Origin: a virus
Lineage: Duplodnaviria > Heunggongvirae > Uroviricota > Caudoviricetes
Strand: one strand, 5' to 3'
Length of the DNA stretch: 15,032 nt
Virus record (IMG/VR): IMGVR_UViG_2529293240_000016
The position numbers were made by a program, and so were the translations under genes. The number at the start of each line of letters is the position of its first letter. Position 1 is the first letter of the stretch. Below are positions 756 to 1,921 of this stretch, piece after piece. The notes under the pieces were generated by a model. That model worked only from the letters and a program-made list of their open reading frames with translations. It was not told the DNA's origin and made no database searches.

Positions 756-956
756 ATGGTTGCCGTAAATCATATACCACACCTTGTACACACACAAACG
801 GCCTTTGTGTGGCGTTTTCTGGCACTGAGTGCCGGAGAATCCCAAATCATCCACGTAACCGCTTGGACGGAACGCGAAGCGCGTAGCCGTTGCCCGTCCG
901 GTTGTGTTGCTGTATTCGCCGCCCGTATTCGTCAGTGGGAAACCTATGCACAATAA
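756..956 (+). CDS. Small protein, possibly P4 Kil / host cell division inhibitor Icd-like
   Basis: ATG at 756 with SD TAGGAG 7 nt upstream; 66 aa (MVAVNHIPHLVHTQTAFVWRF...PSGCVAVFAARIRQ). Resemblance to Icd-like proteins of P4-like islands is from memory; position as first gene of the operon fits P4 kil. Confidence 0.5.
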   Translation: MVAVNHIPHLVHTQTAFVWRFLALSAGESQIIHVTAWTEREARSRCPSGCVAVFAARIRQWETYAQ

Positions 957-1167
957 AACCACACCGAACGCAGCAGCCGCCGCACTCACTACGCTGATGC
1001 ACGCGCTTATTGATATTGAATGCACGGCAGAGCTTGCGCAGGGAGAAGAACAGAAAGACCGGACACAGTTCGCCCTGGAATGTATCCGATACATCGCAAC
1101 GCGGTCACTGAATGACGCTAAAAATATTCTTGTTGCCGATTGTGAAAATGGGGGGGGTTATGCGTGA
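946..1167 (+). CDS. Hypothetical small protein (73 aa)
   Basis: ATG at 946 overlaps the upstream stop (ATGCACAATAA); internal start of track ORF 904..1167. Confidence 0.4.
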   Translation: MHNKTTPNAAAAALTTLMHALIDIECTAELAQGEEQKDRTQFALECIRYIATRSLNDAKNILVADCENGGGYA

Positions 1168-1381
1168 TGATCGTTTTAATTCCCTGAAACAGGAATTTTC
1201 CGGCGTTCCTGATGATGCGGCTGATGCGCTTTCGTCAATGCCAGAACTTATTAGAGCGGCTTTTTTCTTACTTTCCACGAGAGAATATAAATCAACGGGG
1301 CTTGATGTACTGAATATCGCCGCCGATTATGCTGATTTCGTGACAGAGGTTATTTTAAGAAAAACGACGGACGGGGATTAA
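1160..1381 (+). CDS. Hypothetical small protein (73 aa)
   Basis: ATG at 1160 preceded by a G-rich SD (GGGGGGGG) and overlapping the upstream stop; acidic protein. Confidence 0.4.
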   Translation: MRDDRFNSLKQEFSGVPDDAADALSSMPELIRAAFFLLSTREYKSTGLDVLNIAADYADFVTEVILRKTTDGD

Positions 1382-1382
1382 T

Positions 1383-1616
1383 ATGCGTGATATTTACCAC
1401 GAAACAATAGACCGCGCATTTCTTGCACTTTCTCACAGTGAAAACATGCTGGAAATATTGCGCATATGGCTTGAAACACTTGGCGACAATGAACGCGACA
1501 AACAAAAATCAAGAATTGCCACGGCATTAATAACGCTTCTTGAGCCTGTAATAATGGAACTGCAAGAAATAGATCTATTGCACGACAGATATAAAGAACA
1601 GCACACCGGAGAATAA
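1383..1616 (+). CDS. Hypothetical small protein (77 aa)
   Basis: ATG one nucleotide after the upstream stop; part of the tightly packed operon. Confidence 0.45.
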   Translation: MRDIYHETIDRAFLALSHSENMLEILRIWLETLGDNERDKQKSRIATALITLLEPVIMELQEIDLLHDRYKEQHTGE

Positions 1617-1621
1617 AAATA

Positions 1622-1921
1622 ATGAAACTTAAATATTCTGGCTTAACTGCCAGTGGCAACACTCACCCTAAATTTACGCGCGGTGATATTTACCGCGACC
1701 AGTACGGCGGCATGGTAACGATTAAAGGCGTGGCAGAACGGCGCATCACCTACCGCCGTGAAGGTTACGAATATGATTGCGTGATGCCTGTTTATCAATT
1801 CCGGCGTGATTTCACGCTGGTACAGGCAGCGCCCCGCAGTAAACCAACCAGCAGGGAGAAAGCACGCGCCAATATTCAGGAAATAAAAAAGATGCTTAAC
1901 GTATTCAGGGGTAAAAAATGA
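1622..1921 (+). CDS. Hypothetical protein (99 aa) immediately upstream of the primase
   Basis: Stop overlaps the primase start (ATGA at 1918-1921), suggesting translational coupling. Confidence 0.5.
   Translation: MKLKYSGLTASGNTHPKFTRGDIYRDQYGGMVTIKGVAERRITYRREGYEYDCVMPVYQFRRDFTLVQAAPRSKPTSREKARANIQEIKKMLNVFRGKK

What the first reader, a model, noticed from the sequence alone, without database searches (positions are those of the whole stretch)
756..1921. Compact operon of five small ORFs upstream of the primase, resembling the P4 left operon
Five ORFs of 66-99 aa are packed with overlapping or abutting stop/start codons and lead straight into the primase. This mirrors the P4 PLE operon (kil, eta, epsilon, orf151, alpha), whose small proteins manipulate the host and helper phage. 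Only the first has a tentative assignment.
Basis: partly seen in the sequence, partly recalled or inferred. Interest (0 to 1): 0.4.

Follow-up and report, generated by a model that had tools for sequence, protein, structure and literature searches.

The report
Early operon of a phage satellite
The five tightly packed small genes are real and form the front of the replication operon of a decaying capsid-forming phage satellite (cf-PICI) in Shigella flexneri; only the first gene (a Kil/Icd-type cell-division inhibitor) and the replication gene are related to phage P4, and the fifth is the known regulator RgdR, so the feature is genuine but largely already known.

Summary
Observation confirmed. 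ORFs at 756-956, 946-1167, 1160-1381, 1383-1616 and 1622-1921 (66/73/73/77/99 aa) overlap or abut, each has a Shine-Dalgarno motif, and the last overlaps the replication gene start (ATGA). All five hit PHROG families, show dN/dS below 1, and keep this order in about 85 related loci.

The element is not P4-like. It is a capsid-forming PICI of the EcCIEDL933/Sakai Sp7/OI-51 type, between roxA and phoQ. It is degraded: IS1 sits in the replication gene and terL has a 19-bp deletion.

- ORF1 is an Icd/Kil-family protein; it and P4 Kil hit the same NCBIfam model.
- ORF5 is RgdR (DUF4222), 88% identical to ECs1581.
- The replication protein is 40% identical to the helicase/C-terminal part of P4 alpha.
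- ORFs 2-4 are acidic helical proteins of unknown function, unrelated to P4 epsilon, Orf151 or Orf106.
- No CI/C4 RNA and no sid/delta/psu were found.

The P4 analogy therefore holds for architecture and the two end genes only.

Extras I found:
- A length-hypervariable poly-G tract (G7-G11) fuses or splits ORF2/ORF3 across relatives.
- An allele-specific operator/promoter cassette sits next to a divergent Arc-like gene.
- A conserved leader hairpin precedes ORF1.
- DUF4222 lies just upstream of the replication gene in every locus examined, across six or more replication-gene types.

The parts
86..121 (-). Hairpin (GCGGC...GCCGC) followed by a T7 run on the minus strand. It is terminator-like and would end the two-gene minus-strand unit. 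On the plus strand it lies just after alpA, which is outside the window.
   Evidence: Sequence; weak Rfam terminator-type alignments at 36-129; position relative to alpA from L005.
213..389 (-). Small basic protein (58 aa, pI 9.5), phrog_21027. It is conserved between alpA and the operon in most related islands.
   Evidence: PHROG E 2.9e-12. tblastn hits on the minus strand in 57 of 87 loci, including Sakai Sp7.
447..626 (-). Arc-like / YlcI-YnfO-type ribbon-helix-helix protein (59 aa), transcribed divergently from the operon. It is the candidate repressor of the operon promoter.
   Evidence: phrog_228 'Arc-like repressor' 2e-6 and NF041551 5e-4, the latter below its cut-off. RefSeq annotates the homologue in L004 as a YlcI/YnfO family protein. 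The allele is always linked to the same operator set.
620..647 (+). Sigma-70-type promoter candidate for the operon: -35 TTGACA (620-625), 16-nt spacer, -10 TGTAAT (642-647).
   Evidence: Read from the sequence. The scan misses it because it requires A at -10 position 2. TTGAC(A/G) is conserved 128-141 nt upstream of the O1 ATG in 23 of 26 distinct leader alleles, while the flanking sequence is allele-specific.
631..678 (.). Operator-like repeats overlapping the promoter: ATTACA/TGTAAT (631-636/642-647), TGTAATG direct repeat (642-648, 657-663), and a 12-nt-arm palindrome (652-663/667-678).
   Evidence: the repeat finder. Other alleles carry their own pair of repeats at the same two positions. 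The repeats co-occur with the same Arc-like allele in L091, L112, L121, L163 and L165.
694..726 (.). Conserved stem-loop in the operon leader, 30 nt upstream of the O1 ATG. On the minus strand it is followed by a T-rich run, so it reads as an intrinsic terminator there. The 45 nt after it, up to the ATG, are almost invariant.
   Evidence: Inverted repeat I4. Minus-strand terminator-like site. 91.7% of cells paired against 30-55% for slid controls, with two pairs showing compensatory changes. Alignment.
756..956 (+). O1: Icd/Kil-family small protein (66 aa), predicted host cell-division inhibitor. 94% identical to Sakai ECs_1577.
   Evidence: NF033153 6e-18, 64.6 bits against a cut-off of 25. 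phrog_1743 shared with P4 Kil.. dN/dS 0.27.
946..1167 (+). O2: acidic helical protein (73 aa, pI 4.9), unknown function. Matches the N-terminal half of phrog_2512.
   Evidence: Two allele groups, 44-55% and 82-100% identical. dN/dS 0.38.
1150..1157 (+). Poly-G tract (G8) at the O2/O3 junction. It encodes the Gly run at the O2 C-terminus and serves as the SD of O3. Its length varies from G7 to G11 among relatives: G7 and G10 fuse O2 and O3 into one protein of about 145-154 aa.
1160..1381 (+). O3: acidic helical protein (73 aa, pI 4.4), unknown function. Matches the C-terminal half of phrog_2512 and phrog_24341.
   Evidence: dN/dS 0.66 median, about 0.3 in the most divergent pairs.
1383..1616 (+). 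O4: acidic helical protein (77 aa, pI 5.0), unknown function (phrog_2196). Distant homologue of Sakai ECs_1580.
   Evidence: PHROG 8e-42. BLASTP to ECs_1580 26% identity, E 4e-7. dN/dS 0.35.
1622..1921 (+). O5: RgdR orthologue (DUF4222, 99 aa, pI 10.3), with the RGD motif at residues 20-22. Predicted five-strand Tudor/SH3-like barrel followed by a basic C-terminal helix.
1918..2816 (+). Replication gene (Pri-Rep), 5' part. Its start overlaps the O5 stop.
   Evidence: D5_N. The intact 582-aa homologue in L001 is 98-99% identical, and 40% identical to P4 alpha 326-762.
2817..3584 (-). IS1 insertion (768 bp) that disrupts the replication gene. The 9-bp target duplication GTACATGAT lies at 2808-2816 and 3585-3593.
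3585..4443 (+). Replication gene, 3' part (SF3 helicase and C-terminal domain).
   Evidence: DUF5906, Pox_D5 and TIGR01613.

Best explanation
The five ORFs are the promoter-proximal genes of the early (induction/replication) operon of a capsid-forming phage-inducible chromosomal island. The island is of the EcCIEDL933 / Sakai Sp7 / O-island 51 type and sits between roxA and phoQ in Shigella flexneri.

Shown:
- They are real genes, translationally coupled and under purifying selection.
- Gene 1 belongs to the Icd/Kil family.
- Gene 5 is the RgdR/DUF4222 protein.
- The string always ends in the island's replication gene.

Inferred mechanism:
- In the resting state a strong sigma-70 promoter (TTGACA-16-TGTAAT, 620-647) is held down through allele-specific operators. 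The likely repressor is the divergently encoded Arc-like ribbon-helix-helix protein.
- When a helper phage switches on the island's AlpA (encoded just upstream of the window), the operon is transcribed as one unit.
- O1 then arrests host cell division, as P4 Kil and P1 Icd do.
- The acidic helical proteins O2-O4 act on host or helper targets that are still unknown.
- RgdR is a basic Tudor-like-barrel protein with non-specific DNA binding. It modulates transcription and/or assists the replication protein.
- Pri-Rep replicates the excised island.

In this particular copy the pathway is broken downstream: IS1 sits in pri-rep and terL carries a 19-bp deletion. Only the small genes can still act, for example RgdR-type cross-talk with host regulons.
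For: Gene reality:
- Searches give layout, SD motifs and junctions.
- Searches give family hits; one search gives dN/dS of 0.24-0.66.
- Searches show the same order in about 85 loci.

Identity of the island:
- One search finds capsid, S78 protease, portal, head completion protein, connector, HNH, terS and terL.
- Searches show 96% identical E. coli islands at roxA-phoQ.
- Searches show Sakai Sp7 at the same site, with O1 94% and O5 88% identical.
- One search gives a 100% O5 match in S. flexneri. The cf-PICI paper notes EcCIEDL933 homologues in S. flexneri.

Gene 1: NF033153 matches both O1 and P4 Kil. The literature describes kil as a lethal gene and reports an Icd-like effector in a six-gene locus with a primase in ECOR61.

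Gene 5:
- PMC3378721 and PMC6092414 state that RgdR is encoded by all analysed E. coli PICIs.
- DUF4222 lies just upstream of the replication gene in every locus where one was seen (directly, and usually overlapping it, in all but L225), with 584-aa, 466-aa, 601/604-aa, 469-aa, 710/714-aa, DUF927 and AAA_25 types. This holds even at 29-38% identity.

Regulation:
- Conserved -35 with allele-specific paired repeats.
- Linkage of the Arc-like allele with its operator set.
- AlpA dependence of PICI and cf-PICI induction.

Decay.
Against: - There are no expression data for this island. Co-transcription, AlpA dependence and repression by the Arc-like protein are inferred from anatomy and from EcCICFT073/EcCIEDL933.
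- The -10 element is imperfect and the consensus scan did not call the promoter.
- Division inhibition by O1 rests on family membership only. BLASTP between O1 and P4 Eta/Kil finds nothing, and hhalign gives only 25% probability.
- O2-O4 have no informative homologue, no PDB relative and no defence-family hit. The AF2 model of the fused O2-O3 is unusable, with pLDDT 54.
- The island is degraded, so the operon may be silent here. In strain SFBU1023 O3 is truncated.
Confidence: 0.75

Rival explanations
1. It is a true P4-type left operon (kil-eta-epsilon-orf151-orf106-alpha) of a P4-like satellite. On this view the small proteins derepress a P2-type helper, and immunity is exerted by a leader-derived CI RNA.
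For: O1 and Kil share NF033153 and phrog_1743. Pri-Rep is 40% identical to alpha 326-762. Some relatives have an Ash+Icd (Eta-like) first gene. An AlpA/Vis-type gene lies upstream.
Against: No epsilon, Orf151 or Orf106 homologue was found by Pfam, PHROG, NCBIfam or hhalign. There is no C4/CI RNA hit and no nucleotide similarity to the P4 leader. No sid/delta/psu is present. The island carries its own capsid and terminase genes. The alpha N-terminal zinc/Toprim primase domain is absent.
Confidence: 0.04
2. The operon works mainly as a phage-triggered growth-arrest (abortive-infection or superinfection-exclusion) module. A phage protein turns the locus on, and the Icd-like protein stops the cell. 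This protects the population rather than, or as well as, serving satellite replication.
For: Silas et al. (bioRxiv 10.1101/2023.04.06.535777) report that in ECOR61 a six-gene 'prophage' locus, including an Icd-like protein and a DNA primase, arrests growth when phage orf24 is expressed. The effect is lost when the Icd-like gene is removed. The same paper suggests that P4 kil mediates a similar effect.
Against: I could not verify that the ECOR61 locus is the same module. The ECOR61 Icd-like protein has a long N-terminal extension, whereas O1 has none. None of the window proteins hits a PADLOC model. The phenotype is equally what PICI induction by its helper's inducer protein would look like. 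This explanation is compatible with the best one rather than exclusive of it.
Confidence: 0.25
3. In this Shigella genome the operon is a silent relic. The island can no longer replicate or package, and the small ORFs are intact only because too little time has passed.
For: IS1 in pri-rep. A 19-bp deletion in terL. In the related strain SFBU1023 the integrase is split and O3 truncated.
Against: All five ORFs are intact here and identical to proteins seen on 45 to over 1000 contigs. RgdR orthologues in non-mobilisable copies still affect host regulons (OI-51 in EHEC). This speaks to activity, not to what the feature is.
Confidence: 0.3
4. The ORFs are chance open frames in non-coding or antisense sequence.
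For: Small size. There is also an obvious shadow ORF nearby, on the plus strand at 1-747.
Against: Family hits, dN/dS below 1, SD motifs and conserved synteny.
Confidence: 0.01

Closest known systems
Early region of the prototype cf-PICI EcCIEDL933 (= Sakai prophage-like element Sp7 = O-island 51 / CP-933C), genes ECs_1577 to ECs_1582
   Same: Same chromosomal site (roxA-phoQ). Same layout: alpA, then two small minus-strand genes, then an Icd-like gene (O1 94% identical to ECs_1577), small ORFs, RgdR (O5 88% identical to ECs_1581), and an overlapping replication gene. Same capsid and packaging module.
   Different: The middle genes differ. Sakai has ECs_1578 and ECs_1579 instead of O2 and O3, and only a 26%-identical O4 relative. 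Its replication protein is a 710-aa type that shares only the first 225 residues or so at 53% identity. The window copy is inactivated by IS1 and a terL deletion.
AlpA-activated operon of classical Gram-negative PICIs (EcCICFT073 and relatives at tRNA-Pro)
   Same: The identical five-gene module (Icd-like, 222-nt, 222-nt, 234-nt and DUF4222 genes) precedes the replication gene in E. coli PICIs. RgdR is reported in all analysed E. coli PICIs, and C1493 is the CFT073 orthologue.
   Different: Those islands lack capsid, portal and terL genes. Many use a RepA-type helicase instead of the alpha-like protein.
Bacteriophage P4 left operon (PLE: kil/eta, epsilon, orf151, orf106, alpha)
   Same: A compact string of small genes running into the replication gene. 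The first gene is of the Kil/Icd family. The last gene is homologous to the helicase and C-terminal parts of alpha. An AlpA/Vis-type regulator lies upstream.
   Different: No epsilon, Orf151 or Orf106 homologues. No CI RNA and no leader similarity. No alpha primase domain. The regulatory cassette differs (Arc-like gene with operators). The element makes its own capsids instead of using Sid, Delta and Psu.
Phage P1 immI operon (c4 RNA, icd, ant)
   Same: An Icd-family gene opens an operon whose downstream genes are translationally coupled to it. This rests on my own knowledge of P1 and on the NCBIfam family name.
   Different: No C4 antisense RNA was detected, and there is no antirepressor gene downstream.
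ECOR61 Icd-like/primase growth-arrest locus (Silas et al., bioRxiv 2023)
   Same: A cluster of about six linked genes with an Icd-like protein and a DNA primase. The Icd-like protein acts as the toxic effector once a phage protein triggers the locus.
   Different: The sequence relationship was not checked. The Icd-like protein there has a long N-terminal extension.

Membership tests
P4-like satellites (seven core components per de Sousa et al. 2023, PMC10085698) | alpha primase-helicase | tested here: inconclusive
   The helicase and C-terminal parts are homologous: 40% identity to alpha 326-762, E 2e-112. The alpha N-terminal zinc/Toprim primase region (1-325) has no counterpart, and the gene is split by IS1.
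P4-like satellites (seven core components per de Sousa et al. 2023, PMC10085698) | epsilon/Ash helper-derepression protein | tested here: not met
   P4 epsilon is PF25738 / phrog_10016. None of O1-O5 hits these at E up to 0.1. hhalign probability is 1.4% or less. No Phage_ASH domain is found in the window, although it occurs in relatives L002, L094 and L143.
P4-like satellites (seven core components per de Sousa et al. 2023, PMC10085698) | psu-delta-sid capsid-hijacking operon | tested here: not met
   All large ORFs downstream are capsid, S78 protease, portal, head completion protein, connector, HNH, terS and terL. The remaining unassigned ORFs are 101 aa or shorter. Psu, Sid and Delta profiles were not run as a separate search.
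P4-like satellites (seven core components per de Sousa et al. 2023, PMC10085698) | AlpA/Vis regulator and integrase | tested here: met
   Both lie outside the window but in the same island in S. flexneri L005: a 62-aa AlpA-like ORF ending 58 nt before window position 1, and a split integrase. RefSeq annotation of the E. coli relative agrees. This feature is shared with PICIs, so it does not discriminate.
P4 left operon | Kil (C-terminal 65 aa of Eta) as the first translated gene | tested here: met
   NF033153 hits O1 (6e-18) and P4 Eta 161-208 (1.4e-20). phrog_1743 hits both.
P4 left operon | Leader-encoded CI RNA (C4 family) with seqA/seqC targets | tested here: not met
   No Rfam hit at gathering score, and none to C4/IsrK-type families at E up to 5. 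No similarity to the P4 leader. A different conserved hairpin is present.
Capsid-forming PICI (cf-PICI; Alqurainy et al., de Sousa et al.) | Own capsid, protease, portal, head-tail adaptor/connector, HNH, terS and terL | tested here: met
   Pfam hits for all of them. terL carries a 19-bp frameshifting deletion relative to the E. coli relative.
Capsid-forming PICI (cf-PICI; Alqurainy et al., de Sousa et al.) | int, alpA and pri-rep module shared with PICIs | tested here: met
   Here pri-rep is disrupted by IS1.
Capsid-forming PICI (cf-PICI; Alqurainy et al., de Sousa et al.) | No tail or lysis genes | tested here: met
   Between terL and phoQ only one 93-aa ORF remains. The 96% identical E. coli island has none annotated.
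Capsid-forming PICI (cf-PICI; Alqurainy et al., de Sousa et al.) | Helper-dependent induction and transfer | not testable with these tools
   Requires experiments. The copy is probably immobile.
Icd-like / Kil family (NF033153) | Score above the curated cut-off | tested here: met
   64.6 bits against a cut-off of 25.
Icd-like / Kil family (NF033153) | Inhibition of host cell division on expression | not testable with these tools
   Needs an expression experiment.
RgdR / DUF4222 (PF13973) | Domain score above cut-off, full length of 99 aa, RGD at 20-22 and K35 | tested here: met
   85.2 bits against a cut-off of 27. 88% identity to ECs_1581. R20-G21-D22 and K35 are present in the translation. 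The functional residues are taken from PMC3378721.
RgdR / DUF4222 (PF13973) | Activation of LEE1 and repression of motility | not testable with these tools
   Phenotypic test. Shigella has no LEE.
Phase-variable (contingency) homopolymer locus: the poly-G at 1150-1157 | Tract length differs between otherwise near-identical sequences and changes the reading frame | tested here: met
   Five of nine clusters with at least 99.5% identical 400-nt flanks differ in tract length. G7 and G10 give a fused ORF; G8, G9 and G11 give split ORFs.
Phase-variable (contingency) homopolymer locus: the poly-G at 1150-1157 | Reversible switching within a clonal population at high rate, with a phenotype | not testable with these tools
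   Needs deep sequencing of single-colony populations and a functional read-out.

The most novel reading that the evidence does not exclude
Two unreported layers of control may sit in this otherwise known operon.

(1) The poly-G tract at the O2/O3 junction could be a genuine contingency switch. It would toggle the satellite between one fused 145-154-aa protein and two 73-aa proteins, diversifying how island populations deal with helpers or hosts.

(2) The divergent Arc-like gene, with its allele-specific operator pairs over a conserved -35, could be the 'missing' repressor/immunity cassette of Gram-negative PICIs, with AlpA acting on or through it.

A linked idea concerns RgdR/DUF4222. It may be a core, CarD- or UvrD-CTD-like RNA-polymerase-binding partner of the replication gene, and its effect on LEE may be a by-product.
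Probability: 0.25. Interest if true: 0.55.

Novelty: already known. Interest (0 to 1): 0.3.

Why it matters
As posed, the finding re-discovers the conserved early operon of E. coli/Shigella PICIs. It has annotated Icd-like and DUF4222 (RgdR) genes, so it adds little by itself.

Its value lies in sharpening what is and is not shared with P4. Kil and the helicase part of alpha are shared; epsilon, Orf151, Orf106 and the CI RNA are not. Fillol-Salom et al. listed only AlpA, Pri-Rep and Int as shared.

It also yields three testable leads on open questions:
- What represses Gram-negative PICIs? The candidate is the Arc-like gene with its operator cassette.
- Why is RgdR present in every such island? 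It always sits just upstream of the replication gene (directly, in all but one locus examined) and has a Tudor-like fold.
- Does a hypermutable poly-G tract create functional heterogeneity in a satellite's early proteins?

Tried and rejected
- **O5 as a relative of P4 Orf151.** BLASTP gave E 0.007 over 48 residues. Pfam DUF4222 does not hit Orf151. hhalign with shallow and deep O5 profiles gave 0.5% and 14%, the latter over 10 columns only. BFVD fold search did not return Orf151. Rejected.
- **O2, O3 and O4 as paralogues of each other.** hhalign probability is 1.9% or less. Rejected.
- **CI/C4-type RNA in the leader.** No Rfam hit and no similarity to the P4 leader. Rejected.
- **PDB sequence searches for O1, O4, O2-O3 and O5.** Nothing below E = 1.
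- **PADLOC.** No defence-family hit.
- **Counting tract lengths in complete E. coli genomes with length-specific 36-nt megablast queries.** No match, probably because of low-complexity masking. I used IMG/VR loci and one metagenome pattern scan instead.
- **The long plus-strand ORF at 1-747.** RefSeq relatives annotate it as an 'icd-like pseudogene', and Sakai as ECs_1576. It has no family hit and lies antisense to two conserved minus-strand genes with the same wobble positions. I treat it as a shadow ORF.
- **The phage collection (INPHARED).** No DNA match to the operon.
- **A literature search combining EcCICFT073, 'hypothetical' and 'filamentation'.** Returned nothing useful.
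Full report
**1. The observation**

The window carries five consecutive plus-strand ORFs at exactly the stated coordinates:

| ORF | Coordinates | Length |
|---|---|---|
| O1 | 756-956 | 66 aa |
| O2 | 946-1167 | 73 aa |
| O3 | 1160-1381 | 73 aa |
| O4 | 1383-1616 | 77 aa |
| O5 | 1622-1921 | 99 aa |

The junctions are an 11-nt overlap, an 8-nt overlap, a 1-nt gap, a 5-nt gap and an ATGA overlap with the next gene. Each ATG is preceded by an SD-like purine run.

The ORFs are not chance frames:
- All five hit PHROG families, with E from 6e-11 to 8e-42.
- O1 passes the curated cut-off of NF033153 'Icd-like', and O5 that of PF13973 DUF4222.
- Median dN/dS against relatives is 0.24-0.66.
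- The same order recurs in 80 IMG/VR loci and in annotated E. coli genomes.
- The five exact protein sequences already exist in NCBI/UniRef as 'host cell division inhibitor Icd-like protein', three 'hypothetical/prophage proteins' and 'DUF4222 domain-containing protein'.

**2. What element this is**

Downstream of the replication gene the window encodes an HK97-type capsid, S78 prohead protease, portal, head-completion protein, gp6-like connector, HNH, small terminase and large terminase. After these comes phoQ.

E. coli genomes have 95-97% identical islands between roxA and phoQ. The Sakai element at the same site is 'prophage Sp7'. It equals O-island 51 / CP-933C of EDL933, which is the prototype capsid-forming PICI EcCIEDL933 (PMC3378721; bioRxiv 10.1101/2022.09.08.507074).

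The window itself comes from Shigella flexneri: O5 is 100% identical in CP182556.1. There, pepT, roxA, a split integrase and a 62-aa AlpA gene lie just upstream of window position 1.

The copy is decaying:
- IS1 (2817-3584, 9-bp duplication GTACATGAT) splits the replication gene.
- terL has a 19-bp deletion near position 12151.

**3. Comparison with the P4 left operon**

- **Kil.** The C-terminal 65 aa of Eta and O1 both match NF033153 (1.4e-20 and 6e-18) and phrog_1743. hhalign aligns O1 7-58 with Kil 4-57 (E 8e-4, probability 25%). Plain BLASTP finds nothing.
- **Eta-like architecture.** In some relatives the first gene is Ash+Icd, the Eta architecture.
- **Alpha.** The replication protein (582 aa when intact) is 40% identical to alpha 326-762, but lacks alpha's N-terminal primase region.
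- **Epsilon, Orf151, Orf106.** Epsilon (PF25738), Orf151 and Orf106 (DUF5375) share no family with O2-O5. hhalign gives no signal.
- **O5 versus Orf151.** A weak BLASTP hit (E 0.007) is not supported by profiles or by fold search.
- **CI RNA.** Rfam finds no C4/CI-type RNA, and the leaders are unrelated.

The P4 resemblance is therefore real for the architecture and for the two end genes. It is not real for the middle genes, the immunity mechanism or the family of the element.

**4. The individual genes**

*O1.* It is 94% identical to Sakai ECs_1577. By family it should block cell division, like P1 Icd and P4 Kil. Silas et al. report that a six-gene locus in ECOR61, with an Icd-like protein and a DNA primase, arrests growth when a phage protein is expressed, with the Icd-like protein as the effector. 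I could not check that it is the same module.

*O5.* It is 88% identical to ECs_1581 = RgdR and keeps R20-G21-D22 and K35. RgdR activates LEE1, represses motility and binds DNA non-specifically (PMC3378721). It is said to be encoded by all analysed E. coli PICIs (PMC6092414).

- CarD;
- Spt5 KOW domains;
- DUF1653.

DUF4222 sits just upstream of the replication gene in every locus where one was seen. It is directly adjacent, usually overlapping it, in all but one of them. This holds whichever replication type is present: 584-aa alpha-like, 466-aa RepA helicase, 601/604-aa, 469-aa, 710/714-aa, DUF927 or AAA_25. It holds even for homologues only 29-38% identical. In one representative it is fused to a P4-type zinc-finger primase N-terminus. 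I infer a role tied to island replication or induction, with LEE regulation as a side effect.

*O2, O3, O4.* They are acidic (pI 4.4-5.0) and predicted helical. They have no Pfam, NCBIfam, PDB or PADLOC relatives. They are mosaic:
- O2 occurs as two allele groups, 44-55% and 82-100% identical.
- O3 ranges from 74% to 100% and O4 from 73% to 100%.
- Some islands insert an extra 366-nt gene between O2 and O3.
- Sakai Sp7 replaces O2 and O3 by two unrelated small genes and keeps only a 26%-identical O4 relative.

**5. A hypervariable poly-G tract inside the finding**

The O2/O3 junction is GATTGTGAAAATG(G)nTTATGCGTGAT.

| Data set | G7 | G8 | G9 | G10 | G11 | Interrupted |
|---|---|---|---|---|---|---|
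| 68 loci: IMG/VR, E. coli, Shigella and the window | 18 | 25 | 14 | 3 | 1 | 7 |
| 53 metagenome contigs | 10 | 27 | 12 | 1 | 0 | 3 |

- G7 and G10 put O2 and O3 in one frame. The window has G8. The interrupted tracts include GGGGTGGG and GGGGGTGG.
- The fused proteins of 144-154 aa ('ENGGV' or 'ENGGGV') are annotated on hundreds of contigs, including complete chromosomes, and correspond to phrog_2512.
- Among nine clusters whose 400-nt flanks are at least 99.5% identical, five differ in tract length. The G6 tract of the other lineage is invariant in the 16 loci that carry it.
- This is the signature of slipped-strand hypermutability rather than assembly noise. These tools cannot show whether it is selected as phase variation, is neutral, or is compensated by frameshifting.

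**6. Regulation (outside the stated coordinates)**

Between alpA and O1 lie two minus-strand genes. One encodes an Arc-like / YlcI-YnfO ribbon-helix-helix protein (447-626). The other encodes a basic 58-aa protein (213-389). They end at a minus-strand terminator-like hairpin at 86-121. Homologues occupy the same place in most related islands, including Sakai Sp7.

The long plus-strand ORF at 1-747 is annotated elsewhere as an 'icd-like' pseudogene or as ECs_1576. It has no family hit and shares wobble positions with these two genes. I regard it as a shadow ORF.

A promoter candidate abuts the Arc-like start codon: TTGACA, 16 nt, TGTAAT (620-647), overlapped by repeats and a 12-nt-arm palindrome. 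Among the 26 distinct leader alleles:
- TTGAC(A/G) lies 128-141 nt upstream of the O1 ATG in 23 of them.
- Each allele has its own repeated motif, once in the spacer and once after the -10.
- The window's Arc-like allele is always accompanied by the window's operator set, even where different genes follow.

This is the anatomy of an immunity cassette. The 2018 PICI paper states that a global repressor of Gram-negative PICIs was unclear, and I found no later description.

A stem-loop at 694-726 is maintained across alleles. 91.7% of cells are paired against 30-55% in slid controls, and two pairs show compensatory changes. It is followed by an almost invariant 45-nt leader. On the minus strand it reads as an intrinsic terminator. 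Its role is open.

**7. Verdict**

The feature is real and well explained as the early operon of a cf-PICI. It is homologous to P4 only at kil and the helicase part of alpha. The kind of feature, two of its genes and even these exact proteins are already in the literature and databases. The finding as posed is therefore ordinary: novelty 'already known', interest 0.3.

Three leads go beyond that: the poly-G fuse/split tract, the Arc-like gene with its operator cassette, and the invariant DUF4222-replication-gene pairing with a Tudor-like fold. Their functional meaning is inferred, not shown.

Noticed in passing
window 1150-1157 (and the same junction in L087-L166, L168-L220): The poly-G tract at the O2/O3 junction varies from G7 to G11 among relatives. 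G7 and G10 fuse O2 and O3 into one protein of 144-154 aa; G8, G9 and G11 split them. Near-identical loci differ in tract length. Interrupted 'locked' variants exist, such as GGGGTGGG.
   Followed up: yes
window 447-678; also L091, L112, L121, L163, L165, L167: A divergent Arc-like (YlcI/YnfO-type) gene sits next to a conserved -35 TTGACA. Allele-specific operator-like repeats lie in the spacer and after the -10. The repressor allele and operator allele travel together, and some islands carry two such cassettes in tandem. This is a candidate for the unidentified repressor of Gram-negative PICIs.
   Followed up: partly
window 694-755: A leader stem-loop is kept by compensatory changes across alleles. 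It is followed by a near-invariant 45-nt 5'UTR. On the minus strand it looks like an intrinsic terminator (T-rich run at 685-693). This could point to an antisense transcript over the O1 start, or to an mRNA-stabilising hairpin.
   Followed up: partly
window 2808-3593: An IS1 copy (768 bp, minus orientation) is inserted in the replication gene, with a 9-bp target duplication GTACATGAT.
   Followed up: yes
window about 12151 (terL, 10819-12461): A 19-bp deletion relative to the 97% identical E. coli island frameshifts the large terminase, giving ORFs 10819-12234 and 12126-12461.
   Followed up: yes
window 1-747 (+): A 248-aa open frame is annotated in relatives as an 'icd-like protein' pseudogene or as hypothetical ECs_1576. 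It has no family hit and lies antisense to two conserved minus-strand genes in the frame that shares third codon positions. It is probably a shadow ORF and an annotation artefact.
   Followed up: partly
window 1918-2340; L001, L002, L087-L166: The first 120-140 residues or so of the replication protein are shared (41-62% identity) between otherwise different replication proteins: the alpha-like 584-aa type, the RepA-helicase 466-aa type, and the 469-aa and 710-aa types. No Pfam domain is assigned, so this is an unexplained common N-terminal module next to DUF4222.
   Followed up: no
L221, L225, L226 (contexts of distant DUF4222 proteins); P0284: At 29-38% identity DUF4222 still sits in int-AlpA islands behind a few small ORFs and just upstream of a DUF927 or AAA_25 replication gene: directly in L221 and L226, with two small ORFs between in L225. 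L226 has two tandem DUF4222 genes. P0284 is a read-through fusion of DUF4222 to a P4-type zinc-finger primase N-terminus.
   Followed up: partly
window 791-811 (+): A terminator-like hairpin (CACACAAACGGCCTTTGTGTG followed by GCGTTTTCTG) lies inside the 5' end of O1, in a stretch that is almost invariant among relatives.
   Followed up: no
window 5001-5855: This segment does not align with the otherwise 97-99% identical E. coli island, which has SSB and PerC-family genes there. The window instead has unassigned ORFs at 4998-5303 and 5538-5840.
   Followed up: no
L005 (S. flexneri SFBU1023) 2510-3760 and 5492-5692: In this related Shigella strain the island's integrase is split into two ORFs and O3 is truncated after residue 48. 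This is further evidence that the island is decaying in Shigella.
   Followed up: no
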